Below are positions 1 to 44,317 of a DNA stretch of 44,317 bases, in pieces. How positions within the stretch are numbered: the stretch's first letter is position 1; each line of letters opens with the position of its first letter. The position numbers and the translations under genes are program-made. Origin of the DNA: a phage; sequence record PX907402.1; one strand, written 5' to 3'. The notes below the pieces were generated by a model. That model searched no databases. It was not told the origin of the DNA and was given only the letters and a program-made list of their open reading frames with translations.

Positions 1-110
1 CACCCCTGTCCCGCTTTTAATTTATGCAATGTTGGTGGGTAAATATGCAGTTTTTATAGGTGCGGTATAGAACGGGACAAAACGGGACGTCCCGCCTGTC
101 CCGCTCCGTT
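1..110. repeat. Right half of composite element copy A: GTCCCGC/GCGGGAC iterons (including palindromic cgggacgtcccgcctgtcccgc) and AT-rich tract ttttaatttatgcaatg; continues from window end
   Basis: Direct reading; shares tgtcccgcctgtcccg, tgtcccgcttt and ttatgca blocks with 16376-16500. Confidence 0.6.
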
Positions 111-432
111 ATGCTGGGTTCTGCCGCGCCATTTCATCCAGCGCAACGCGCTCCATTAGCTTAATATCTTTAAACGCACGCTGCGCGTTTTCGATGCCGT
201 GCATCTTAAATAACCATTCCAGTACGCCGTAGTCGATGCCGTATGCGCCGCCGAATCCGGTGCGCCATTGCGTGGAGCAATCTGTGAAGACTGCGACTAC
301 CTTCGCGTTGTCGGGCCACAGCGCAACGGGCGGACACACGTCTTCAGGTGTCGCGCCCCATAAACTCGCGGCTAAATCTTCGGAGGGTGGCGGCGGGCCA
401 TAAAAGCGCCGCGCCGCCTCAATTAGTTTTTT
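109..432 (-). CDS. Tail assembly chaperone T-like segment, probably expressed only as a fusion to the upstream G-like ORF by -1 frameshift
   Basis: Frame is open from 432 to stop at 109 with no good start; overlaps end of ORF 423..785 at a slippery A AAA AAC; sits between major tail and tape measure genes in circular order. Confidence 0.55.
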   Translation of the reverse strand, partial: KKLIEAARRFYGPPPPSEDLAASLWGATPEDVCPPVALWPDNAKVVAVFTDCSTQWRTGFGGAYGIDYGVLEWLFKMHGIENAQRAFKDIKLMERVALDEMARQNPA

Positions 433-785: not shown

Positions 786-801
786 TATATAATTCTCCAA
801 T

Positions 802-824
802 AAAAAAGGGGCCGTACTGGCCCC
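802..824 (-). terminator. Intrinsic terminator after major tail protein gene
   Basis: ggggcc-gtact-ggcccc hairpin followed by T6 on minus strand. Confidence 0.5.
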
Positions 825-6246: not shown

Positions 6247-6283
6247 CAAAAAGGGGGCCATCACGGCCCTCGAATTATTTTTT
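6247..6283. terminator. Bidirectional intrinsic terminator
   Basis: gggcc-atcac-ggccc hairpin with A-run upstream and T-run downstream; overlaps stop of lipoprotein ORF. Confidence 0.5.
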
Positions 6284-13722: not shown

Positions 13723-14009
13723 TTTGCACCCCCTGGAAGTCGGAACGACGCAATAGTCTCCCGGATCCGGTCCGCTATTGGCATCCAGAAGATGGCAGTT
13801 GCGAAGCCCAAACCGGCGACAGTGCGCTCGCCAGACAAACCAGACCACTCGGCAATAGCTGGCGCACCAAATATGGCACACAGGAAGCCAACTACGACAT
13901 ATAAAACGAAGTTCAACGGCCCTTTCGTTGCCTCGCCATGAATGCGTGCGCCTACGAAGCCACCAGCAAGACACGCAAGGGCGAATAACCACTCGTTTAG
14001 CTTATCCAT
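13719..14009 (-). CDS. Holin-like membrane protein (96 aa, about three TM segments)
   Basis: Hydrophobic segments; ATGA overlap with downstream holin gene. Confidence 0.5.
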   Translation of the reverse strand: MDKLNEWLFALACLAGGFVGARIHGEATKGPLNFVLYVVVGFLCAIFGAPAIAEWSGLSGERTVAGLGFATAIFWMPIADRIRETIASFRLPGGAK

Positions 14010-16168: not shown

Positions 16169-16322
16169 ATTAATCACGCGCATGAAAAAGTTGATCGCTA
16201 TCTGCTGTAACTGCAAACCGCATTTTTCACTTCACATAACACAACTCGCATTGGTTGCCTAGTTCATCAACGACCGCGATTCACATCATGCTGCCGTACA
16301 TTATGCAATCCCGGATTTTATG

Positions 16323-16374
16323 CAGTCTCAGACGAGGGGGGCCACTGACCCCCGTCTAGTCTGAAAGACTGGGG
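16323..16374. repeat. Composite element copy B: conserved GC-rich hairpin
   Basis: 51 of 52 nt identical to 44248-44299; imperfect stem gacgaggggg/cccccgtc plus agtct-gaa-agact. Confidence 0.7.
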
Positions 16375-16375
16375 T

Positions 16376-16500
16376 TTGTCCCGCCTGTCCCGCTCCTCGC
16401 CAGGCCGCGTCATCCGGGGCGGGACAGGGGTGCTGTCCCGCTTTGTCCCGCTCCTTGTTTGTCCCGCTTTTTGTCCCGTTTGTTTTATGCAGTTTTATTG
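16376..16500. repeat. Composite element copy B: GTCCCGC iteron array followed by AT-rich tract
   Basis: At least six TGTCCCGC-like repeats at 10-16 bp spacing plus one inverted GCGGGACA; then ttttatgcagttttattgcataac. Confidence 0.65.
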
Positions 16501-16527
16501 CATAACTATTCATAATAATCACGCCAC

Positions 16528-16635
16528 ACGGCAACCAATGCGACCAGATAAAAACACTCAAAATGGCAACCAATGCGCGCACAAATTAATCGTTTAGCGA
16601 TATGTGGATTCCCATATCGGCAACCAATGCGCGCA
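16528..16635. repeat. Three direct repeats GGCAACCAATGCG(C/A) at about 52 bp spacing
   Basis: Direct reading between primase stop and iteron array. Confidence 0.55.
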
Positions 16636-16639
16636 GAAT

Positions 16640-18904
16640 TTAATCTTTTAAGTCGTCATCGGTTGCAGAAAGCGTGATGGGTATATTCGTTTTTATGACG
16701 ATATTCGACGACCCATAGATGGCTCCGGTGTGCGGATCGGTATAAAAACCGAGTACGCCGCGCTCGACCATATCGTCGATTGCCTTCGTCGATGTGCCAC
16801 CTTTTGCCAATCCTGCCTGGCGGACAATTGCCGATTTACTGAATCCGGTATGGTCCGGGTTATCTTCCATCAGTTTTTCCAGGGCCGCGTAAAGTACCTT
16901 TTCTTTTTCGGTGCGCGGTCCGGCGGTGTTCTCTTCCTTAACTGCGGCTTTTCCTGCGGCCTTCGCCTGTTCTATAGCGAACGGTGCCAGGGCGACCGGT
17001 ACGAGGTACAGAGTCTCGTCGCGTGGCGTGGAGGCAATTGGCTTGACGTCCCAACCGGCAACCACATCGCCGAAGTCCGGCCCGGTGCTGGTGGACTGGT
17101 GGGCTTCGAACGCTTCGGACTTGCGGAGATCCACCTTAACCTTGCACTTGAGCAGGACGAAGCCGCGCGGCGCTTGCTTAATGCCGTTACGTGCCTTCTC
17201 ATGATACAGGTTCAATTGTCCGGGCTGGTTGTCGTCCGGTTGCTCCAGGAAGAACGCGGAATCGACAGCACCATGCAGCGCGCCGGACCCGCGGGGGGAT
17301 CTGCTGCCGTTTGCACCTTTCGCCGGGTGGTGAATGACGCCCGCACTGCCGCCGGTATTTTCCGCGATGGCCTTCAGCGCTTTGACCACTTCACCCATAT
17401 CGCTGGCGTTGTTCTCGTCGAACGGTTTAGCATCGGCGGACCGCAACGCAACAGTCTGGTTGAGTGAGTCGAACGCCACCAGGCCAACCGGTTCGCCGTT
17501 AGCGGTGCGGTTGATGAAGCTGATAACTTCGCGCAAGCCTGATTTGCTGGTGATATCCCAGCCGCGTGACTGCAGATCGATAATGTGCAGCTTGTCGAGG
17601 TCGTGCTCGTATTTGATCTGCAATGCTTCTTTGCGCTGGTTAGAGGCTTCACCACCTTCCGCATCGAAATAGAAGCAATGAGACTGGACGACCTTCGCAC
17701 CGCCGAACGGAATACCGGCGGCAACCGCGCCCATCTGCCCCAGCACATAGAAAGACTTACCAATGTTCGACTCGCCCGCCATATACCAGGTCGATTTGAA
17801 GTTAATCAACCCCTCGATAATCGGGTCGTGCTTACTGAACAGCGCAACCGGCTCGTTATCCAGATCCGCATCGGTGCACACGCCGTATTCTTCGCCGTCG
17901 CCAACCGCATCAACAATATGTTCATATAAGGATTCGACTTCTTCGTCGTCCAGCCCCGGAAGGATGGCGGCGATTTGCTTACGGGACATATTGTGTGGCT
18001 CGACGTTCAGGTGGTCCGGGATCCCGATAAGACGTAGCGCCAGGTGCTGGTGCCTATTCAGTTCCGAGCAACACTCGTTGCCTGTGTGCATACACTTGAA
18101 ACGGATCTCGCCATCCTTGACCATGATAGCCGTCGACCCTTCGCCGCTGTGCAGATGTTCGTTCGGGCACGGCACTTCATAACCACGACCGGACGACAGC
18201 GGTTCGAATCCTGCCTGGAAGCACCAATCCAGAATACCGTCCGCCACGCCGTCATCGCCCTGGGTTAGTTCGCGGCGTACTTCCTCTTTCTCCACTCCCA
18301 GCTTATCAGCCAGGCGAAGCAGACGACGGACGCGGGCACGTTTGCCGTAGTGACACTTAACAACCGATTGCTGGTGTGGCAGGTACATAAGGCGGTTTGT
18401 GTCTTTCGTGCAATCATCGAAGTCCACATCTGACAGGCCCAGTTGGTGTAATAGTGCATACTGTACGCGGCCCAGGTCTTCCGCCGGTACAGGATTATCG
18501 GTGAGCACCAGGAAACGAGCGCAACGCGTGCCGCCTTTCAGCGGGTGGCGGTCGCCGGTTGTGGTGTGGAATACATGTTCCAGTCCCGCGTCGATGAATG
18601 CCTTACGGCAGCGGCGTAAGGTGCGGGTGTCGGTACGGTCAATATCGAAGAACAGGATCGAGCGGTCCACCGCACTGGTCTTACGACGCAATCCGTCACA
18701 GGTATACGCCACGATGCCATCGGCCTTACGCTTGCGGCGCGCATACTCGGCTTTATCTTCCGTCCTGTTGATATGCACCGAGGATATTTCTTTCGCATCA
18801 TTGATAAATTCGAAGAACTCTTCGGTAGTCATCTGGAAGTTTTCCGCCCTGGCTTTTTCGCCTTTTTTAGCGGGTCGTGTTACAGCGAATTTAATTAAGC
18901 TCAT
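16640..18904 (-). CDS. Primase-helicase (prim-pol-like N-terminus, Cys-rich finger, RecA/DnaB-like ATPase)
   Basis: ILFFDIDRTD acidic motif, CPNEHLH...CMHTGNEC cysteine cluster, Walker A GESNIGKS and Walker B LVAFDSL. Confidence 0.75.
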   Translation of the reverse strand: MSLIKFAVTRPAKKGEKARAENFQMTTEEFFEFINDAKEISSVHINRTEDKAEYARRKRKADGIVAYTCDGLRRKTSAVDRSILFFDIDRTDTRTLRRCRKAFIDAGLEHVFHTTTGDRHPLKGGTRCARFLVLTDNPVPAEDLGRVQYALLHQLGLSDVDFDDCTKDTNRLMYLPHQQSVVKCHYGKRARVRRLLRLADKLGVEKEEVRRELTQGDDGVADGILDWCFQAGFEPLSSGRGYEVPCPNEHLHSGEGSTAIMVKDGEIRFKCMHTGNECCSELNRHQHLALRLIGIPDHLNVEPHNMSRKQIAAILPGLDDEEVESLYEHIVDAVGDGEEYGVCTDADLDNEPVALFSKHDPIIEGLINFKSTWYMAGESNIGKSFYVLGQMGAVAAGIPFGGAKVVQSHCFYFDAEGGEASNQRKEALQIKYEHDLDKLHIIDLQSRGWDITSKSGLREVISFINRTANGEPVGLVAFDSLNQTVALRSADAKPFDENNASDMGEVVKALKAIAENTGGSAGVIHHPAKGANGSRSPRGSGALHGAVDSAFFLEQPDDNQPGQLNLYHEKARNGIKQAPRGFVLLKCKVKVDLRKSEAFEAHQSTSTGPDFGDVVAGWDVKPIASTPRDETLYLVPVALAPFAIEQAKAAGKAAVKEENTAGPRTEKEKVLYAALEKLMEDNPDHTGFSKSAIVRQAGLAKGGTSTKAIDDMVERGVLGFYTDPHTGAIYGSSNIVIKTNIPITLSATDDDLKD

Positions 18905-19244: not shown

Positions 19245-19375
19245 TGCTCTGCCCTCAGTTGGTTAATGACCAACGAAACTACACCCAAAACTGCACGGTG
19301 TCAAATCCTTTGGATATTGAAACGGGCGCGCACGCGTGTAATAATAATTCTCGTCTCATTGTCTCTTATTGGTTA

Positions 19376-19409
19376 GCGCCGTCGCATTTTGCCTCGGCGC
19401 TTTTTTTTT
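19376..19409 (+). terminator. Hairpin plus T9 tract (terminator or UP-like A/T element)
   Basis: gcgccg-13 nt loop-cggcgc followed by nine T. Confidence 0.35.
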
Positions 19410-19420
19410 GAAATTAGTTG

Positions 19421-19450
19421 TTGACACCCATCCTGCAACCAATCTATTAT
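19421..19450 (+). promoter_or_regulatory. Strong candidate early promoter
   Basis: TTGACA (19421-19426), 18 bp spacer containing TGCAACCAAT, TATTAT (19445-19450). Confidence 0.55.
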
Positions 19451-19646
19451 TCACCCCGTCGACAGGATGCAGGACGCAAACTGGAGAGGGGCAACGCAGG
19501 GGCCGGATCGAAGTGTCAGGATTCCCAACCGTGATTATATAACCAGGTCCACTACCCGAACGGGAGAACGCGTAACCTGGCAATATGTTAAGGCCACCGA
19601 CGAAGTTAACTGCCGACACCTAAACTTAACCAATCGGAGATATACC

Positions 19647-20075
19647 ATGTTTGAGCAAATCGTAAACCTGATCACTCGCGGCGTAGTAGCACTGGAAACC
19701 ATTGCAAAGCATTATGAAACCGTTGGCGCTGCCGTTGGTAAGCAGGAAGACAAGAAGCCGTCTAAGGCCAAAAAAGAAGTTGTCGAAGATGACGACGACG
19801 ATGCCGAAGACGAAAAACCGGCTAAGGATAAAAAAGCACCGGCGAAAGGCAAAGGTAAGAAAGATGCCGATCCGCTGGCGGAGATGCGCGACGAAATCAA
19901 ACAGTATGCCGCGATTATCGCCGGTGGTGATGACGACGATGCTAACGACGAATTCGACGACCTGCTGGAATCGTTCGAGATCAAATCAATCGCTAAGCTG
20001 GAAGATGACGACGTCGAAGACTTCCACAAAGAGCTAAAAGAAATCGTCGAAACCTATTTCGAACTGGAAGATTAA
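19647..20075 (+). CDS. Highly acidic protein with lysine-rich patch (first early gene)
   Basis: ATG after ggaga RBS; D/E runs (DDDDDAEDE, GGDDDDANDEFDD, EDDDVED). Confidence 0.5.
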   Translation: MFEQIVNLITRGVVALETIAKHYETVGAAVGKQEDKKPSKAKKEVVEDDDDDAEDEKPAKDKKAPAKGKGKKDADPLAEMRDEIKQYAAIIAGGDDDDANDEFDDLLESFEIKSIAKLEDDDVEDFHKELKEIVETYFELED

Positions 20076-22319: not shown

Positions 22320-23099
22320 ATGGCTAAAGTCAACCTGAAAAATGTGCGCGTATGCTTCCTGAAAATTTGGGAACGTGATACCCCTAAACAGGATGGGCAA
22401 AAACCGGCATACCGTGCCGTGATTCTTCTGGATAAAGAAGATCCGCAGGTGGACAAAGTGGAAGCGGCAGCACGCGCAGTGCTCACCGACAAGCTGAAAT
22501 CCGAGAAGAATGCCGATAAGTGGATGGACCGCCACTACGCCCAGGATTCTAAGGAATGTGCAGTTCGCGACGGCGACGAGCGCGATGAAGTAACCGAAGA
22601 ATTCGAAGGCATGTTGTATATCAACGCCAAATCGTTCAAGCAGCCTATCATTCAAACGTCACTCGGCGAGAAGCAGACTGAACAAGGTCTGACCATCGAC
22701 GGCGACGAGATTGAAGGCCAGGAGATCTACTCCGGTTGTTATTGCAACGTGTCCCTTGATATTTGGGCATGGAACAATACCAACGGCAAGGGTCTCGGTG
22801 CTGGCTTGCTGGGTCTGCGATTCCGTGAAGACGGCGAAGCCTTCGGAGGTGGCGGGTCTTCTTGCTCCGATGAAGACCTGGACAACGACGACGAAGACGA
22901 AGCACCGCGCAAGTCCAAAAAGTCAAAACGTCGTGATGACGATGATGATGACAAGCCGCGCAAGTCCAAGAAATCCAAGCGCCGCGATGACGACGACGAT
23001 GAGGAAGATGAAAAACCTCGCAAACGTCGTAAGCCACGCGATGACGAAGATGAGGACGACGACGAAGACGAAGCGCCACGTAAACGTCGCCGCCGTTAA
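22320..23099 (+). CDS. Putative ssDNA-binding protein (DUF2815-like) with alternating acidic/basic repeat tail
   Basis: N-terminal MAKVNLKNVRVCF and GCYCNVSLDIWAWNNTNGKGLGAGLLGLRF resemble the phage SSB-like family as I recall it; C-terminus of DDDD/KSKKSKRR repeats. Confidence 0.45.
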   Translation: MAKVNLKNVRVCFLKIWERDTPKQDGQKPAYRAVILLDKEDPQVDKVEAAARAVLTDKLKSEKNADKWMDRHYAQDSKECAVRDGDERDEVTEEFEGMLYINAKSFKQPIIQTSLGEKQTEQGLTIDGDEIEGQEIYSGCYCNVSLDIWAWNNTNGKGLGAGLLGLRFREDGEAFGGGGSSCSDEDLDNDDEDEAPRKSKKSKRRDDDDDDKPRKSKKSKRRDDDDDEEDEKPRKRRKPRDDEDEDDDEDEAPRKRRRR

Positions 23100-31818: not shown

Positions 31819-32394
31819 ATGTACGGCGAATATGAAATAACAGGTAAACAATTCCACCTGGCGGCAATGATCGCAAGCATAGAGTTTGACCAGTGGCGGT
31901 ATAAGTCCGACGCGTGCAAGCAAAGCAGACTCGTCGGTGTGCTGGGCGAAATGTTTGCAGGCATGTACCTCGAAGGGCAGGCGGGCGGGCGTAGCTGTAT
32001 CCCGCAAGGTTTGCTAATGCGTACCGGCCTGTTTAGCGCCAACACCATTGACCGCGGCGATATTATCATGGTCGGCAAACGCAAGGTGAAGTCCGGGCCA
32101 GACTTCCGTGAGCATGTGATCGATGCCGTATGGACATATGAGGTTAAGGCCACAAGCGGCATACGTCGCGGGCTGGTCGATGCACGTTGCGCTCGCGAGT
32201 ATCTCACTCGTCGCGTTGCCGGTGTTATCCTGGTGGGCGTAGATTTCGGGCAGCATAGCGCGCACGGCGTTATTGAAGATATCGCGGAACCGTACGTGAT
32301 TGTGAATGACTGGCCTATTGTTGAAGTAGACGGCAAGGAATATTACGAAAGTCCGCTGGTGCGGCGCAAAATGGATTGGGAAAACTCAAACTAA
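31819..32394 (+). CDS. Hypothetical protein
   Basis: 191 aa ORF; possible D...E-V-K nuclease-like motif, unconfirmed. Confidence 0.45.
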   Translation: MYGEYEITGKQFHLAAMIASIEFDQWRYKSDACKQSRLVGVLGEMFAGMYLEGQAGGRSCIPQGLLMRTGLFSANTIDRGDIIMVGKRKVKSGPDFREHVIDAVWTYEVKATSGIRRGLVDARCAREYLTRRVAGVILVGVDFGQHSAHGVIEDIAEPYVIVNDWPIVEVDGKEYYESPLVRRKMDWENSN

Positions 32395-32414
32395 AAAAGG
32401 GGCCATACGGCCCC
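32393..32414. terminator. Bidirectional terminator between convergent plus and minus units
   Basis: ggggcc-atac-ggcccc with A-run upstream and T-rich downstream. Confidence 0.55.
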
Positions 32415-32420
32415 TTCTCG

Positions 32421-34019
32421 TTATGATTTAGCCTGTGCCGCTACTGCAGCTTTCAGTTCCTCCAGTTCTTTCTGCATATCATCCATCTTATCCATCAGTG
32501 CTAGTATGGCTTCGTGATGTAGCGCGGCGGACACCCCCGCTGTGTCGACGCTCATTACATCTTCAACAACTGTATCATCTTCAAGTGTGACAGGGTTTTT
32601 GTTTACCACTCTAACAGCATCTGGAAAATACTTTTGCACTTCCTGTGCTACAAAACCAAAACCTTTAAGTGGGTTATTTTTGAAGCGCATAGTCCATGAT
32701 ACGCCTCGAATAGAGCGCATCTTAGTTAGCGGGTCCGCTATTCTAACTATATTTTTTTTTACTCTGATGTCGGATGTGTTGACCCAGTTTGCGGCGCTTG
32801 CGGTGCCGTTGTTATTGAATACATAGTCACAATTCATACCCTGACCGCTGTAAACTGACAGTTGGCATGCCGCCATATCCTGACCGGAACCACGTATACC
32901 ACCGATACGCCACGCGCCATCGAACCATCCGCCTTCTAAATAGTTCGCCCAACCTGACGCCGGCGTGTCTGCCGGGTTCCACATCCAGATGTGGTTTCGG
33001 GGAATACCGTCCGGTATTCCAAAAAAGCGTCCGATGTTGCCGAACACATCGAGAGGCCGAACGACAGGCCATAAGTCCGCAACCTTGTTTACGCCAGTAC
33101 CACCAGACTCGACTGCAAGAGGCGTGCTGAAGGTTTGCGCCTGGGACCATGTGTTTGCGCCGTTTAGTGTCGGCACGTTATCCCCAGACGTGCCGACATT
33201 TAGCGTCGCCGCGGACCCCAAGCCTAAGTTACCCCGCGCTGCCGTTGTGTCGGCAACGTCGCTAAGGTTGTTGCCCTTTGCCAGAAATCTAGACGGGTCG
33301 ATCTCATTCTTGAATTGTTCGGCTTCGTTCCGGTATCCCTGCGCGGCAGTGCTGGCGGCTTGCGCGGCAGTGCTGGCGGCTTGCGCGGCAGTGCTGGCGA
33401 CGTTGGCCTCGTCCCTCATAGCGCCGGTGTCAGTCTTGATCTGGTTCGTCTGGTCCTTGATGGTCTGCGTATCCGTCTTAATCTGGTTGGTGGCGTCGCG
33501 AATACTAGCCGTCTCGGTCTTGAAGCCTTCGGCCTCATTGCGAAACCCTTGCGCGGCTGCTTCCGATGCGGCGGTTTGTTGTTGCAGGTTGCGCATTTCA
33601 ACTGGGTCAACTTGCTTCATCAATTGCGACAGGTAACCCCAGGACATACCCTGCATAACTTGCCCGTTCGGTAGCGTTACCGTGATTTCTTCTTCGTCTC
33701 CGAAGATTGCGCGCCAGTTGTTTTCGTCCGCGATCATCAAGCGCAACGCTTTCTGCGCTTGGACGGTTACGCCCATCGTTGCCAGTGACATGGTATCGCG
33801 CTTAACGCCATCCCACGCAAGGCCGGTTGCCGTTGGGCCGTCGAACGGCAGAACCAGAGTGAGCGACGTGTCGCTTTCAACGGACGCGATTGCCACGGTG
33901 TAGGGGACTTGTCCTACAACCAGCGTTAAGAAGTCGCCTGCGTTAAACGCGGTAAACGTCGTGCCGACCCCGACAACCGCCTTGCTGTTATTCGTTACGG
34001 ATAGAGTACCCGCTGCCAT
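32421..34019 (-). CDS. Tail fibre protein with C-terminal intramolecular chaperone (peptidase S74-like) domain
   Basis: C-terminal SDIRVKKNIVRIADP...VDTAGVSAALHHEAILALMDKMDDMQKELEELK resembles the auto-cleaving chaperone of phage fibres/endosialidases; internal (STAAQAA)x3 repeat. Confidence 0.75.
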   Translation of the reverse strand: MAAGTLSVTNNSKAVVGVGTTFTAFNAGDFLTLVVGQVPYTVAIASVESDTSLTLVLPFDGPTATGLAWDGVKRDTMSLATMGVTVQAQKALRLMIADENNWRAIFGDEEEITVTLPNGQVMQGMSWGYLSQLMKQVDPVEMRNLQQQTAASEAAAQGFRNEAEGFKTETASIRDATNQIKTDTQTIKDQTNQIKTDTGAMRDEANVASTAAQAASTAAQAASTAAQGYRNEAEQFKNEIDPSRFLAKGNNLSDVADTTAARGNLGLGSAATLNVGTSGDNVPTLNGANTWSQAQTFSTPLAVESGGTGVNKVADLWPVVRPLDVFGNIGRFFGIPDGIPRNHIWMWNPADTPASGWANYLEGGWFDGAWRIGGIRGSGQDMAACQLSVYSGQGMNCDYVFNNNGTASAANWVNTSDIRVKKNIVRIADPLTKMRSIRGVSWTMRFKNNPLKGFGFVAQEVQKYFPDAVRVVNKNPVTLEDDTVVEDVMSVDTAGVSAALHHEAILALMDKMDDMQKELEELKAAVAAQAKS

Positions 34020-41536: not shown

Positions 41537-44179
41537 TCATCGTTTGTAAAGTACACCACCCGGTTTCGTCGCCTTCACGATCTCGGACTTCACCGCCTCG
41601 GTGATTTGCTTGCCGAACGCCTGCGCGGTACGGGGGTCCGGCCCGCTGACACTGGTATCCGTTTTACCGGTCCCCGTGTAAACGTTAGTCGTCACGACCA
41701 TACCACCGCCTGCGCCAGACGCAGCAACGCCCAGTTTACCGTCAGGCCCGCGCTTCAGTGGCATGATGGCCTCGGGGCCAGCCTCGCCCATCAATCCCGC
41801 GCCCTTAGCGAACGCCTGGACGCCATAACTGAAAAAGGTAGGCTGGCTTACCACTTTCCCCGAATAGGCCGCGAGATTGCCTCCTGCGTACGCTCCGCCG
41901 TCCGCATTCTTAGTCAGGCCCGAGAAGATAGCGCCGAACAATCCGTTTTTGCCGCCGTCACCACCGAAAGCGCTAACGATAGACTTGAAAGCCTGCGAGG
42001 TAGCCAGCTTGATTAACTCGCTCAGGATGGACTTAACCATATCCTTTGCGTTCAGCTTGCCCGTCTCGAAAAACTCGTTCATCGTGTCTTGCATAGCGCT
42101 GAACGTGAATTTTGTGAGCGACGTCATCTGCGTATATCCGTTACCCATATCATCCACACTATCCTTAAGCCCGCGGCTGAAGCCATCCCATAGCGAGGCG
42201 TTAGCACCGGTCTGTGCTTCCTGCACTTCACGCAGCTTAGACACCGCCTTGTCTATATCGGTATCGTTAGCGCCAACCCGCTTCAGGCGGTCAATTAGCT
42301 GCAATTCTTCACGCAGGTTTGCCGCTTCGCGAGTGGAAAGCGCATAGCCCGCGGCGGTGGCTTTTAGTTCGGCGTTCTGGTTCTTAACGAAGGCATCGAT
42401 CTGCGCGTGCGCCTTAACCTGCTTCTCTTTCGCGTCCAGTAGTTTGGCTTCTTCGACGATCTGCTCGCGCACTTCCTTCACGCGTCCGAATTCGACCATC
42501 TGCTGCTTCTCTGCTGCCGTTAGCGCCCTTTGTTTGCTCGCGGCGATTAACTGCTCATTGTCGGCAATCAGCTTGTTTAAGGCCGCTTGAGCGCGTTGCG
42601 TGCGGGTCTGCGTAGACGCGTTGGCTTCGATCTGCTTGCCGGATTCTCGAAGCTGGGCCAGTTCGCTCCGTGCGACTTCCAGCATTTTCATACCGGCATC
42701 CACGCGAACAGCCGCGGCCTTCTTCGGGGCGGGGTCTTTGTAGCGCTCGTTTACCTGCTTCACCGCCTCCGCAAGCTCTTTCTCGTCAATAACGCCGCGC
42801 TTATTCAGCAAATTGAGGCGGGCGATCTCGTCTGCACGCTTTTTCGCGTTGGTTGCGTACTCCTTCTCGAACGCAGCGCGGTCGCGGGCGGTGCGGTTAG
42901 CCTCCTCGTTCGCCTTTGCGGATTCGTCTGCGGCGCGGGCGTTGTCTCGCTCCGCACGGTTACGCAGGGTGAGCGACGCCACCACTTTTTCCTGGGCGAC
43001 CAGTTCGCTGTAAAGCATGTTAATACGCGCTTTCTGCGCTTCGGTCATAACTCCACCGGCAGCGTTTACCGCTTTCATCTCGGCATAGTAAGCCGTGGTC
43101 ATGCGCTGCAATGATTCACGCGCTTTCATCTCGGACTCATTCGAGGACTGCGCGCGGCCCACATCCAGGATGGCATCCCACATCGATTTAGCTGCCGATG
43201 TGACGACGTTCATCGACCGCTCAAGCGTGCCCATGTTTGACTTGATCTCATTGGTCATGCTGGTGAACGACGCAGCGGCGGTTTTGTTAGCCAACGCAAC
43301 TGCGTCTGTCTCACGACCCGCATCAACCAGCGACTGCACCTGCTGGATCTGCGCTTCGTTTACGACGTGATACTTATCCGCCAGTGCGCGCAAGCCGCCC
43401 ACGGGGTCAGTGGAGAGCTTCGCCACCGCCGCCACCACATCCTCGATCGGCTGGCTGGACACCTTCGCAAAGTCATTAACTACCTTAGCCAATGCGCCGA
43501 AGTCACCACCCGCTTTCACCCCCGCCGCCGCCAGCGCCTGGATTGTGTCACGCGTCTTGCGAAATGACCCGCCCATGCGCTCGGCGTTCTCGGACAGCAC
43601 CAGGATCTGGTTAGCGGTGAGGCCAGAGATATTACCAGACAGCGCCAGCGTCTTATTAAGCGCTGCGACCTGGTTCTCTGCTCGGGACGTAATTGCCACC
43701 CCTACGCCGAGCGTTGCCGTTAATGCAGCGATGCCGATCCCTAACGGGCCGAGTGTGCCAACGACATAACGCAGCGTGTTTCCCAGTCCGCCAAACGCCC
43801 CAGTAAGCTGCGGTAACTGCTGAAGCATAACGCGGTGCACCGGCATACCCATCTCAAGCGTAACCGCGATATCCTGTAACTGGAATGCGGCGTTCCGCGA
43901 TGCGAATCCCAGGTTTTTGGTCGACATGCCTAATCGGCTGGCGAGTCGCTCCTGTTTCGTCATGCCGTCGGCGGCGCGCTGCGATTCAGTCGCTAACTTT
44001 TCCATTCCGCCAGCAGCGTCGCCAGTAACCTTTTTCGACTTGCCAAGTGTGTCGTTTAATTTTTTTACTTTCTGTTCTGTGTTCTCGGATTTCTGCGCAA
44101 ATGTGTCCAGCACAGTATTAGCCGTTTTAATTTGCGCGACGTCCGCCTTGAGCGTGATGCCCGCTGCTTGATCTGCCAT
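41537..44179 (-). CDS. Tail tape measure protein
   Basis: 880 aa, A/K/E-rich coiled-coil, Gly-rich C-terminal segment; between chaperones and tail tip genes. Confidence 0.85.
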   Translation of the reverse strand: MADQAAGITLKADVAQIKTANTVLDTFAQKSENTEQKVKKLNDTLGKSKKVTGDAAGGMEKLATESQRAADGMTKQERLASRLGMSTKNLGFASRNAAFQLQDIAVTLEMGMPVHRVMLQQLPQLTGAFGGLGNTLRYVVGTLGPLGIGIAALTATLGVGVAITSRAENQVAALNKTLALSGNISGLTANQILVLSENAERMGGSFRKTRDTIQALAAAGVKAGGDFGALAKVVNDFAKVSSQPIEDVVAAVAKLSTDPVGGLRALADKYHVVNEAQIQQVQSLVDAGRETDAVALANKTAAASFTSMTNEIKSNMGTLERSMNVVTSAAKSMWDAILDVGRAQSSNESEMKARESLQRMTTAYYAEMKAVNAAGGVMTEAQKARINMLYSELVAQEKVVASLTLRNRAERDNARAADESAKANEEANRTARDRAAFEKEYATNAKKRADEIARLNLLNKRGVIDEKELAEAVKQVNERYKDPAPKKAAAVRVDAGMKMLEVARSELAQLRESGKQIEANASTQTRTQRAQAALNKLIADNEQLIAASKQRALTAAEKQQMVEFGRVKEVREQIVEEAKLLDAKEKQVKAHAQIDAFVKNQNAELKATAAGYALSTREAANLREELQLIDRLKRVGANDTDIDKAVSKLREVQEAQTGANASLWDGFSRGLKDSVDDMGNGYTQMTSLTKFTFSAMQDTMNEFFETGKLNAKDMVKSILSELIKLATSQAFKSIVSAFGGDGGKNGLFGAIFSGLTKNADGGAYAGGNLAAYSGKVVSQPTFFSYGVQAFAKGAGLMGEAGPEAIMPLKRGPDGKLGVAASGAGGGMVVTTNVYTGTGKTDTSVSGPDPRTAQAFGKQITEAVKSEIVKATKPGGVLYKR

Positions 44180-44247
44180 TATGCAGTCCCCCTTTTTATG
44201 CAGTTGCCGTCGGTCATTGTATCAGCGAATTTAAAACAAACCTTATT

Positions 44248-44299
44248 CAGTCTCAGACGAGGGGGGCCATTGACCCCCGTCTAGTCTGAAAGACTGGGG
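44248..44299. repeat. Composite element copy A: conserved GC-rich hairpin
   Basis: 51 of 52 nt identical to 16323-16374. Confidence 0.7.
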
Positions 44300-44317
44300 A
44301 TTGTCCCGCCTGTCCCG
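44300..44317. repeat. Start of copy A iteron array (ttgtcccgcctgtcccg), continues at window start
   Basis: Identical to 16376-16393. Confidence 0.6.

What the first reader, a model, noticed from the sequence alone, without database searches (positions are those of the whole stretch)
1..110. Window start is the continuation of the junction element (palindromic GCGGGAC/GTCCCGC sites)
Positions 73-107 read cgggacaaaacgggacgtcccgcctgtcccgc, i.e. two direct GCGGGAC-type sites abutting two inverted GTCCCGC sites. That symmetry suggests a dimeric DNA-binding protein. Listed separately because it lies at the opposite end of the window from the hairpin half.
Basis: seen in the sequence. Interest (0 to 1): 0.4.

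Follow-up and report, generated by a model that had tools for sequence, protein, structure and literature searches.

The report
Replication-initiator binding repeats in a coliphage
The palindromic GTCCCGC sites at the window start are real and belong to one of two conserved repeat regions of a Dhillonvirus (HK578/SO-1-like E. coli phage) genome, most likely binding sites (iterons) for the phage's own primase-helicase at a replication origin-like element: a known kind of element, already flagged in one GenBank record but never tested.

Summary
CGGGAC sits at 73 and 83 (- strand) and GTCCCGC at 89 and 98 (+ strand), with another copy at 8.

The window is a near-complete Dhillonvirus genome. It is cut inside the roughly 384-nt intergenic 'region A', between the tail chaperone (DUF1799) and tape-measure genes. 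The two window ends are not truly contiguous: about 148 nt found in all relatives are missing.

A second cluster, 'region B' (16299-16640), shares a 75-nt, 96%-identical core with an invariant double hairpin. It lies directly after the 754-aa primase-helicase gene.

That protein is predicted to combine an AEP primase, a RepA-type helicase and a C-terminal winged helix. Relatives with 44-69% identical proteins keep the same architecture, but the heptamer differs along with the winged-helix recognition region.

In unrelated viral contigs, 36 of 48 GCGGGACA arrays lie in or next to replication-initiator genes.

Best reading (confidence about 0.5): these are iterons of an origin-type element, as in SaPI Rep-ori, P4 ori/crr and RSF1010 oriV. 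Region A would be a Dhillonvirus-specific second copy. A terminator or regulatory role is the main rival.

It is a new member of a known kind, of modest interest.

The parts
1..108 (-). Chaperone-proximal part of 'region A' (the finding). It holds iteron module 1, the AT-rich spacer and one further site.
   Evidence: Homologous to SO-1 repeat_region 'region A'.
73..104 (.). Four heptamer/hexamer sites in a 2+2 head-to-head arrangement: CGGGAC at 73-78 and 83-88, GTCCCGC at 89-95 and 98-104.
   Evidence: Near-invariant in 14 relatives. HK578 and WFI-type records annotate it as a terminator, and phage 'rolling' as a repeat_region.
15..72 (.). AT-rich spacer (31% GC against 54.5% for the genome). 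It carries TTATGCA (22-28) and ATATGCA (43-49) and is flanked by sites of opposite orientation.
8..14 (+). GTCCCGC site. It is the first base-paired half of module 2; the rest of module 2 is missing from the window.
109..426 (-). DUF1799 tail assembly chaperone-like gene, whose stop codon abuts the repeats.
   Evidence: PF08809, E 2.8e-21
44180..44317 (-). Tape-measure-proximal part of region A. It holds two sites (44303-44309, 44312-44317), the double hairpin, an extended -10-like TGATACAAT (44217-44225 on the - strand) and TGCATAA motifs.
   Evidence: (D3, D14)
44248..44296 (.). Conserved double hairpin, copy A. In the RNA sense it reads AGTCT-TTC-AGACT plus AGACGGGGG...CCCCCTCGTCT.
   Evidence: D3, 96% identical to 16318-16392.: -28.4 kcal/mol, z -3.9; 98% column identity, with only loop bases varying.
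41537..44179 (-). Tape measure protein gene. Its ATG lies inside a TGCATAATG motif.
16299..16640 (-). 'Region B', the second repeat locus. Sites lie at 16378, 16387, 16435, 16445, 16461 and 16473 (+) and at 16420 (-). The hairpin is at 16323-16371 and the AT-rich stretch at 16479-16529 (29% GC). Three GCGCGCATTGGTTGCC copies lie at 16531-16627.
   Evidence: SO-1 'region B' annotation.
16640..18904 (-). 754-aa primase-helicase. It has an AEP/Prim-Pol-like N-terminal domain (about 18290-18904), an AAA_25 RepA-type helicase (17312-17836) and a C-terminal winged helix (about 16691-16909). It is the candidate iteron-binding initiator.

Best explanation
Proposal. The GTCCCGC/GCGGGAC(A) sites at 73-104, at 8-14 and at the window end are iterons: reiterated binding sites for the phage's replication initiator. 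The most likely binder is the C-terminal winged-helix domain of the 754-aa protein, which combines an AEP primase, a RepA-type helicase and a winged helix.

The two loci.
- Region B lies directly downstream of the initiator gene and is the primary origin-like element.
- Region A lies between the tail chaperone and tape-measure genes and contains the finding. It is a Dhillonvirus-specific partial duplication of region B plus two extra palindromic modules. It would act as a second origin or as a cis-acting replication enhancer, as crr does in P4.

Inferred sequence of events.
1. Winged-helix domains of several protomers occupy the direct and inverted sites.
2. The helicase ring assembles and opens the adjacent AT-rich stretch (15-72 in region A, 16479-16529 in region B).
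3. The exposed, invariant double hairpin serves as a loading or priming signal for the fused primase, like ssiA/ssiB of RSF1010.
4. The phage Pol I-type polymerase extends the primer.

Shown: the anatomy, the conservation, the synteny, the predicted folds, and the co-variation of motif and protein.

Inferred: who binds the sites, and that replication starts here.
For: 1. There are two clusters only, and they share a 75-nt core that is 96% identical. Both are present in essentially all of 159 Dhillonvirus records (351 places).

2. Region B starts 20 nt after the stop codon of the primase-helicase gene.

3. Predicted protein architecture:
- AAA_25 helicase domain, E 2.5e-19.

4. Relatives whose protein is 44-69% identical keep the order small HTH gene, primase-helicase gene, then a 290-650-nt non-coding gap. 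The gap has the same layout: direct repeats, an inverted repeat, a GC-rich spacer, more repeats, hairpins. The repeated word differs and tracks the winged-helix helix-3 region:
- TSTKAI / TNTTAI goes with GCGGGACA.
- DRYKIL goes with GGGGAGA (7 of 9 genome copies lie there in phage FSL SP-031).
- KRRPA(I/L) goes with GGGAT(C/A)A.
- (N/H)Y(K/G)K goes with TCGCAA.
- ARRRSL goes with GCGGACAA.
- RYSDAL goes with GTGCGGAA.

5. In viral contigs selected only for three GCGGGAC copies, 36 of 48 non-Dhillonvirus GCGGGACA-type arrays lie inside or abut replication-initiator genes. 16 abut AAA_25 primase-helicases, with the 3' end within -490 to +80 nt of the array. 15 lie inside O-like/DnaD-like initiator genes. 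5 abut other primase or primosomal genes.

6. Sites are more conserved than spacers (96% against 88%). Spacers flanking the palindrome vary without keeping complementarity.

7. The 58-nt AT-rich stretch (31% GC) is flanked by sites of opposite orientation. This matches the SaPI ori description in PMC9371898.

8. The iteron-plus-hairpin-plus-RepA/RepB' logic is that of RSF1010, and winged-helix binding to repeats is that of P4 alpha, as summarised in PMC4234260.
Against: - No experiment exists: no binding, origin-mapping or coverage data were found.
- The finding itself lies in region A, 16 kb from the initiator gene and inside the tail operon. FSL SP-031 has no such second cluster, so region A's role is the weakest link.
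- The co-variation is confounded by phylogeny, because everything diverges together. The small upstream HTH protein and the small ORFs downstream also differ between lineages and could be the binder.
- The Dhillonvirus winged helix shows no detectable sequence similarity to the C-terminal domains of the other GCGGGACA-associated helicases (hhalign probability 1.6%). No O-like domain is encoded in the window. The shared heptamer is therefore probably coincidence or convergence.
- More distant relatives (Jerseyvirus, Kagunavirus, Bas71) have a terminator and an antisense HTH gene instead of an array.
- The winged-helix fold match is generic.
Confidence: 0.5

Rival explanations
1. Transcription punctuation. 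On the - strand (the sense strand), the 73-107 palindrome forms an RNA hairpin right after the chaperone gene and acts as a partial terminator or attenuator. The tape-measure and distal tail genes would then be expressed from their own promoter, the conserved TGATACAAT. On this view the repeated heptamers are just the arms of such hairpins.
For: - The HK578 and WFI/WF5505 GenBank records annotate exactly this palindrome as a rho-independent terminator.
- The sense-strand RNA folds at -28.3 kcal/mol, z -4.3.
- GTCCCG is followed by TTTT in nearly all relatives.
- One lineage (L025) carries an additional canonical terminator at the same spot, so termination there is tolerated.
- An invariant extended -10-like TGATACAAT precedes the tape-measure gene.
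Against: - The full hairpin consumes the U run and is followed by GUUCUAUACC. Only a 4-5-bp inner hairpin precedes UUUU.
- The consensus scan does not call it in the window or in PC2. It does call the phage's canonical terminator GGGGCC..GGCCCCTTTTTT at 824-808 (family D8).
- Spacers inside the palindrome change without compensation, while the heptamers stay fixed.
- Most other sites are direct repeats that cannot pair.
- The same heptamers recur at region B, and at replication genes of unrelated phages.
- This reading is not exclusive of the iteron reading.
Confidence: 0.2
2. Operator arrays for a phage transcription regulator. A candidate is the 109-aa HTH protein encoded just upstream of the primase-helicase, or a small early protein. 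It would time middle and late gene expression at two boundaries of the long rightward transcription unit: early to middle at region B, and proximal to distal tail genes at region A.
For: - Both regions lie in the same orientation inside one about 30-kb co-directional gene block, and each is followed by TGCATAA motifs and a start codon.
- The 109-aa ORF has a Sigma70_r4_2/HTH_23-type HTH.
- The phage plainly uses other reiterated operator-like words: TTGGTTGC occurs 20 times against 2 expected, at promoter-like sites.
Against: - The small HTH protein belongs to a different family in the Guernseyvirinae relatives (HTH_3). Those relatives nevertheless keep the array architecture. The winged helix of the primase-helicase is homologous throughout.
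- No GTCCCGC site lies at the divergent early promoter region, 19245-19466.
- No sigma-70-type promoter is called in either region.
- Arrays of the same word in unrelated phages sit at replication genes.
Confidence: 0.15
3. A cis-acting RNA element. The conserved two-stem hairpin next to the arrays would act in the transcript, for example as a put-like processive antiterminator or a processing or stability signal. The heptamers would be accessory.
For: - There are two copies per genome, both in the sense orientation of long operons.
- The predicted fold is strong (-28 kcal/mol, z -3.9).
- The element is more conserved than flanking coding DNA (98%).
- HK022 has two put sites, each with two stem-loops (my own knowledge, not checked here).
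Against: - No Rfam family matches.
- The stems never vary, so there is no co-variation to support RNA pairing.
- This does not explain the heptamer arrays, which occur in both orientations.
- The finding's own coordinates (1-110) do not contain the hairpin.
Confidence: 0.07
4. Packaging (pac) or physical genome-end signals. On this view the window ends here because virion DNA ends here.
For: - Several database assemblies, including this window, break in or near region A.
- P1 pac is built from reiterated hexamers (my own knowledge).
Against: - Dhillonviruses assemble as circles, and PhageTerm predicts headful, permuted packaging (PMC9022532; PMC10059673).
- Most records place region A internally.
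- Assembly breaks are expected at a 75-200-nt repeat present twice.
- The arrays associate with replication genes, not terminase genes, elsewhere.
Confidence: 0.03

Closest known systems
SaPI (Staphylococcus aureus pathogenicity island) Rep / PriRep origins
   Same: - The initiator-helicase, fused to a primase in SaPI5, carries a C-terminal winged-helix domain that binds short iterons.
- Six to twelve iterons lie immediately downstream of the rep ORF.
- An AT-rich centre has iterons on each side pointing in opposite directions (PMC9371898).

Region B matches this layout. The finding has opposite-facing sites flanking a 31%-GC stretch.
   Different: - SaPI Rep helicases are AAA+ (SF3/MCM-like). 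The phage helicase is RecA-type AAA_25 (RepA/DnaB-like).
- The sites here are 7-8 nt, with 13 or more per locus.
- An invariant hairpin element is added.
- There is a second locus 16 kb away, inside the tail operon.
Satellite phage P4 alpha protein with ori and crr
   Same: - One polypeptide combines a primase, a helicase and a C-terminal winged-helix origin-binding domain that binds octamer repeats (PMC4234260).
- From my own knowledge, P4 needs two separated repeat-bearing cis regions, ori and crr. This parallels regions B and A.
   Different: - The P4 primase is Toprim-type and its helicase is SF3.
- No sequence or profile similarity was detected.
- P4's repeat word is different.
IncQ plasmid RSF1010 oriV with RepA, RepB' and RepC
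   Same: - Iterons are bound by an initiator.
- A RepA-family helicase opens the origin.
- Conserved hairpins (ssiA/ssiB) are recognised by the AEP-like primase RepB' (PMC4234260).

   Different: - The three functions are fused in one chain here.
- The iterons are 7-8 nt, not 20 nt.
- The hairpins in the two loci have the same orientation, rather than lying on opposite strands of one origin.
- The similarity to RepA by sequence is marginal (E 0.09-0.44).
'Region A' and 'region B' repeat_regions annotated in Sodalis phage SO-1 (NC_013600 / GQ502199)
   Same: Same element, same position and about 85% identical. The record already notes direct, inverted and palindromic repeats and the similarity between the two regions.
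   Different: The window copy of region A lacks about 148 nt.
Phage lambda ori inside gene O
   Same: Reiterated initiator-binding sites lie next to an AT-rich stretch. 15 unrelated viral contigs carry GCGGGACA arrays inside O-like/DnaD-like initiator genes, exactly in lambda's arrangement.
   Different: The Dhillonvirus has no O-like protein, and its arrays are intergenic.

Membership tests
Iteron-type replication origin served by a self-encoded initiator (SaPI Rep-ori, P4 alpha ori/crr, RSF1010 oriV) | A cluster of short reiterated sites, far denser than chance and conserved relative to the spacers | tested here: met
   - 4 sites in 40 nt and 7 in 120 nt. The maxima in 300 simulations were 3 and 5.
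- Site columns are 96% identical against 88% for other non-coding columns.
Iteron-type replication origin served by a self-encoded initiator (SaPI Rep-ori, P4 alpha ori/crr, RSF1010 oriV) | The array lies inside or immediately next to the initiator gene | tested here: not met
   - Not met for the finding's own locus. Region A lies between the DUF1799 chaperone and tape-measure genes, about 16 kb from the primase-helicase gene.
- Met for the sister locus, region B, which starts 20 nt after the primase-helicase stop codon.
- P4's crr is also remote from the initiator gene (my own knowledge).
Iteron-type replication origin served by a self-encoded initiator (SaPI Rep-ori, P4 alpha ori/crr, RSF1010 oriV) | An AT-rich segment flanked by sites of opposite orientation | tested here: met
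   - Positions 15-72 are 31% GC against 54.5% for the genome. They lie between the site at 8 (+) and the sites at 73/83 (-).
- In region B, 16479-16529 is 29% GC.
Iteron-type replication origin served by a self-encoded initiator (SaPI Rep-ori, P4 alpha ori/crr, RSF1010 oriV) | The initiator carries a sequence-specific DNA-binding (winged-helix) domain | tested here: met
Iteron-type replication origin served by a self-encoded initiator (SaPI Rep-ori, P4 alpha ori/crr, RSF1010 oriV) | The repeat word co-varies with the initiator's DNA-binding domain among relatives | tested here: inconclusive
   Six classes of helix-3 region pair with six repeat words, and three classes were seen in two diverged members each. 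The pattern is confounded by shared ancestry, and other lineage-specific proteins cannot be excluded.
Iteron-type replication origin served by a self-encoded initiator (SaPI Rep-ori, P4 alpha ori/crr, RSF1010 oriV) | The initiator binds the sites, and replication starts there | not testable with these tools
   This needs EMSA or footprinting and origin mapping. No such data are in the searched literature.
Rho-independent (intrinsic) terminator | A GC-rich stem with a 3-8-nt loop, followed directly by a U-rich tail on the sense strand | tested here: not met
   - The consensus scan calls the canonical terminator at 824-808 (-) but not the 73-107 palindrome. It also does not call it in PC2.
- The full -28 kcal/mol hairpin pairs the U run and is followed by GUUCUAUACC.
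- An inner 4-5-bp hairpin followed by UUUU remains possible, so weak termination cannot be excluded.
put-like / structured cis-RNA (Rfam families) | A match to a curated covariance model, or compensatory base changes in the stems | tested here: not met
   There are no Rfam hits in the whole window at gathering threshold. The hairpin stems are invariant in all copies, so there is no co-variation.
pac/cos packaging site or physical genome end | Virion DNA ends or packaging series start at the site; usually next to terminase genes | tested here: not met
   - Headful, permuted packaging is reported for Opt-212 and BF9.
- The region is internal in most of the 159 records.
- The terminase genes are about 10-11 kb away.

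The most novel reading that the evidence does not exclude
Dhillonviruses would start replication with a single-chain version of the RSF1010 machinery: an AEP primase, a RepA-type helicase and a winged helix. This would act at two iteron-plus-hairpin loci.

The second locus, region A, contains the finding and has been planted between the tail-chaperone and tape-measure genes. It would be a genuine second origin, or a P4-crr-like enhancer. Its occupancy by the initiator might also couple replication to expression of the distal tail genes.
Probability: 0.3. Interest if true: 0.5.

Novelty: new member of a known kind. Interest (0 to 1): 0.3.

Why it matters
Dhillonviruses are common, easily isolated E. 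coli phages. They are in the BASEL collection and among phage-therapy candidates, yet nothing is known about how they replicate.

If these arrays are origins, they give defined cis elements and a defined initiator domain for building replicons, engineering these phages, or predicting replication-level exclusion between co-infecting relatives. Different heptamer 'specificities' exist in sister lineages.

A second origin-like element inside a tail operon would be an unusual genome layout worth testing.

Practically, the repeat pair explains why assemblies of these phages often break or lose sequence here, as this window apparently did.

Tried and rejected
- **Rfam scan of the whole window:** no family matched.
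- **Physical end, cos or pac:** rejected. Packaging is headful and the locus is internal in relatives.
- **Simple circular junction:** rejected. No relative has the end-to-start sequence contiguous, and about 148 nt are missing.
- **Canonical terminator:** the scan is negative for the palindrome.
- **Sigma-70 promoters in regions A and B:** none passed the scan.
- **Shared DNA-binding domain.** I asked whether the Dhillonvirus winged helix is homologous to the 'RKAFxRA' C-terminal domain of the other helicases that abut GCGGGACA arrays. hhalign gave probability 1.6%. No window ORF matches that domain or the O-like N-terminal domain.
- **Database search with the C-terminal 149 aa alone:** one fragment hit only. 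Full-length search was needed.
- **PDB sequence searches:** only marginal RepA hits.
- **Literature search for the heptamer and for Dhillonvirus origins or repeats:** nothing relevant.
- **DnaA-box reading of GTGAATAGTTATGCA:** weakened. In Kagunavirus the same word sits in a promoter spacer, like an operator.
- **Sister-group isolates, to date region A:** none are in the phage collection.

Full report
**What the window is.** The first 3 kb match 159 phage records at 80-95% identity. Almost all are Escherichia/Shigella/Sodalis phages of the genus Dhillonvirus, such as HK578, JL1, YD-2008.s and SO-1. At 44,317 nt, the window is essentially one such genome.

Its two ends cut a non-coding stretch.
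- On the - strand, a DUF1799 tail-chaperone-like gene ends at 109 (PF08809; HK578_016).
- The tape-measure gene starts at 44179.

Dhillonviruses assemble as circles and are reported to package by the headful mechanism (PMC9022532; PMC10059673). The ends are therefore not physical termini.

**The observation.** Positions 73-104 read CGGGACaaaaCGGGACGTCCCGCctGTCCCGC, exactly as described. Further copies lie at 8-14, 44303-44309 and 44312-44317.

Genome-wide the word is not enriched. The hexamer occurs 30 times against 26.9 expected. The heptamer occurs 16 times against 9.0 expected, and 2 of 100 shuffles reach 16. However, 14 of the 30 hexamers sit in two short stretches: the window ends, and 16378-16478. 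Local density is 4 in 40 nt and 7 in 120 nt, which exceeded every one of 300 simulations. Outside the clusters the word is at background; inside them it is not.

**The ends are not a true junction.** I joined end to start and searched the phage collection. All full-coverage matches came as two pieces spanning 330-340 nt for a 192-nt query, and about 210 nt for a 65-nt junction probe. In PC2, SO-1, HK578 and twelve IMG/VR contigs, about 148 nt with about 8 more sites lie between the window's last base and its first. A strain-specific deletion between CTGTCCCG repeats is possible. Because the break coincides exactly with the record ends, and the region is a repeat, sequence loss in assembly is more likely. 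This is inference.

**Anatomy.** Read in the sense of the flanking genes (window - strand), a complete region A has three modules.
- Module 1: GCGGGAC-N2-GCGGGAC|GTCCCG-TTTT-GTCCCGC, then an AT-rich stretch with two TGCATA motifs. This is the finding (window 108 to 15).
- Module 2: a similar palindromic module.
- Module 3: four direct GCGGGAC(A), one inverted copy, a GC-rich spacer and two more copies. Then comes an invariant double hairpin, a TGATACAAT extended -10-like box, and TGCATAATG containing the tape-measure start codon.

Module 3 recurs at 16299-16500 as region B. There is a 75-nt repeat at 96% identity (D3; alignment). In region B it is preceded by an AT-rich stretch (29% GC) and three GCGCGCATTGGTTGCC copies. 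Region B begins 20 nt after the stop codon of a 754-aa ORF.

The SO-1 RefSeq record already annotates both loci as repeat_regions 'A' and 'B', with direct, inverted and palindromic repeats and mutual similarity. HK578 and WFI-type records call the module-1 palindrome a terminator, and phage 'rolling' calls it a repeat_region.

Across 14 distinct region A sequences, column identity is:
- site columns, 96%;
- hairpin columns, 98%;
- other non-coding columns, 88%.

The spacers inside the palindrome (AG, AA, AAAA against TTTT) change without keeping complementarity. Selection therefore acts on the words, not on the pairing.

**The neighbouring protein.** The 754-aa ORF has several predicted parts.
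- An AAA_25 (RepA-type) helicase domain, with E 2.5e-19. It matches PHROG 'replicative helicase-primase'.

The protein is thus a one-chain primase, helicase and DNA-binding module.

**Comparative test 1: relatives of the protein.** Full-length homologues at 44-69% identity were traced to their contigs. All keep the order small HTH gene, primase-helicase gene, then a 290-650-nt gap. The gap has the same layout as region B, including the small AGTCT-NNN-AGACT hairpin in L149 and L151. The reiterated word differs and follows the helix-3 region of the winged helix:

| Winged-helix helix-3 region | Source | Repeated word |
|---|---|---|
| GGTSTKAIDDM / GGTNTTAINAL | window, L149 | GCGGGACA |
| GGDRYKILKDL | FSL SP-031 | GGGGAGA (7 of 9 genome copies within 150 nt) |
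| GGKRRPA(I/L) | L147, L153, L150 | GGGAT(C/A)A |
| (N/H)Y(K/G)K(V/T)L | L146, L152 | TCGCAA |
| NARRRSL | L151 | GCGGACAA |
| GGRYSDAL | Serratia phage Otaku | GTGCGGAA |

This is what a co-evolving protein-DNA pair looks like, but shared ancestry confounds it. FSL SP-031 has no second cluster, so region A looks like a Dhillonvirus-specific duplication. More distant relatives (Jerseyvirus, Kagunavirus, Bas71, about 30-35% identity) carry a terminator and an antisense HTH gene at that place, and no array.

**Comparative test 2: what such arrays are elsewhere.** A pattern of three GCGGGAC copies was scanned over IMG/VR. After collagen-like coding repeats were set aside, 48 non-Dhillonvirus loci had GCGGGACA-type arrays. 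They break down as follows.
- In 16, the array abuts the 3' end of an AAA_25 helicase ORF, at -490 to +80 nt. These ORFs carry Prim-Pol or Toprim/Zn-ribbon primase domains.
- In 15, the array lies inside an O-like/DnaD-like initiator gene, as lambda's ori does.
- In 5, it abuts other primase or primosomal genes.

Three quarters of such arrays therefore sit at replication-initiator genes.

The DNA-binding domains of those proteins are not detectably related to the Dhillonvirus winged helix (hhalign probability 1.6%). No such domain is encoded in the window. The shared word is best treated as coincidence or convergence. The result supports the kind of element, not a shared binder.

**Mechanism proposed.** By analogy with three systems:
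- SaPI Rep/PriRep, where a winged helix binds iterons just downstream of rep, with an AT-rich centre and opposite orientations (PMC9371898);
- P4 alpha, where a winged helix binds origin repeats (PMC4234260);
- RSF1010, where iterons are bound, the RepA helicase opens the origin, and ssi hairpins are recognised by RepB' (PMC4234260).

I propose that the heptamers are iterons for the primase-helicase. The AT-rich stretches (31% and 29% GC) would be the opening sites. The invariant hairpin pair (-28 kcal/mol as RNA and -13 to -14 as DNA, z about -3 to -4) would be a loading or priming signal. Region B would be the primary origin. Region A would be a second origin or a crr-like enhancer. Binding and initiation are inferred, not shown.

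**Rivals.**
- Terminator. The terminator reading of the 73-107 palindrome has some support: three database annotations, a strong sense-strand hairpin, a conserved TTTT, and an extra canonical terminator at the same place in one lineage. However, the element fails the consensus scan, which does find the phage's canonical terminator at 824-808. The U run is consumed by the full hairpin. The idea also cannot explain the direct repeats or region B. It may be a secondary function.
- Operator array for the 109-aa HTH. This is disfavoured because that protein is replaced by an unrelated HTH_3 protein in relatives that keep the array architecture.
- put-like RNA. This idea lacks any co-variation or Rfam support.
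- Packaging. This is contradicted by the headful data.

**Novelty and verdict.** The repeat regions were already noticed by the SO-1 annotators. No paper in the searchable library discusses them or the heptamer. An iteron array served by a winged-helix-bearing primase-helicase is a known kind of system. This would be a new, untested member. Its one unusual feature is a second copy inside the tail operon. Interest is modest at 0.3, and confidence in the iteron/origin reading is about 0.5.

Noticed in passing
window 5685/5699, 16129/16160, 16531/16566/16620, 19435, 22240/22256, 29479/29496, 31152/31164, 34036 and others: The 8-mer TTGGTTGC (reverse complement GCAACCAA) occurs 20 times against 2.05 expected; 0 of 100 shuffles reach 20. 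Copies are mostly intergenic and come in pairs 14-31 nt apart. They overlap sigma-70-like promoters, where TTGGTTGCA supplies a TTGCA(T/A) -35 box and a second copy follows a TATATT -10 box. This is probably the operator or promoter word of the phage's early regulator. Relatives carry related words (GCCAACA, GCTGCCAAC, GCGGCCAAC) downstream of their primase-helicase genes.
   Followed up: partly
window 801-823, 6247-6269, 32392-32414: A family of three canonical intrinsic terminators (GGGGCC-loop-GGCCCC followed by a T run). They lie after the major tail protein gene and at two other operon ends (repeat finder family D8). The first was confirmed by the terminator scan at 824-808 on the - strand.
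   Followed up: partly
window 16491-16515; L148 (FSL SP-031) 13781-13816; L150, L151, L156: The 15-mer GTGAATAGTTATGCA is conserved between Dhillonvirus region B and distant Guernseyvirinae, just upstream of the direct iteron array. In Kagunavirus K1ind2 the word GTGAATAGT sits twice in promoter spacers. It may be an operator. Its reverse complement, CTATTCAC(A/T), also resembles a DnaA box. The question is unresolved.
   Followed up: partly
L042, L047, L050, L055, L065, L141, L144, L040, L051, L052, L060, L082, L084, L104, L115 (IMG/VR contigs): Fifteen unrelated viral contigs carry GCGGGACA arrays inside an O-like/DnaD-like replication-initiator gene (N-terminal domain phrog_35955). The array lies right after a winged-helix-like segment and before an A-rich stretch. 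This is a lambda-type ori-in-gene family using the same word.
   Followed up: partly
L029, L031, L036, L038, L063, L083, L090, L123, L131, L133 (IMG/VR contigs): AAA_25 primase-helicases with different primase types (Prim-Pol, Toprim) abut GCGGGACA arrays. They share a conserved C-terminal motif, W..FY...(T/A)(K/R)RKAFxRA...L..G.I. This is a candidate GCGGGACA-recognition domain, unrelated by sequence to the Dhillonvirus one.
   Followed up: partly
window 33340-33402: Three tandem 21-nt units (TGCGCGGCAGTGCTGGCGGCT) lie inside the 532-aa - strand ORF at 32421-34019. This is an in-frame 7-aa repeat in a probable tail fibre gene.
   Followed up: no
window 19781-19952 and 22868-23083: GAC/GAA-rich direct repeats (families D1, D2, D6) encode acidic Asp/Glu runs and a 51-nt tandem duplication. 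They lie in early-region ORFs (202 aa and 266 aa).
   Followed up: no
L025 (IMGVR_UViG_3300045988_003101), region A: The most divergent Dhillonvirus-like contig has an extra canonical terminator (GGCCGGGTAATTCCGGCCTTTTT) inserted between the chaperone stop codon and module 1. It has also lost the fourth site of the palindrome.
   Followed up: no
database records seen: Odd records:
- PQ843332.1 (phage P-GXEC-L2P5) is 88.6 kb with five copies of the element, which suggests a dimeric or concatenated assembly.
- Dhillonvirus-like records are labelled as Acinetobacter and Campylobacter phages.
- A 94-aa fragment 100% identical to the primase-helicase C-terminus is filed under Photobacterium gaetbulicola on a 284-nt contig, probably a contaminant.
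   Followed up: no
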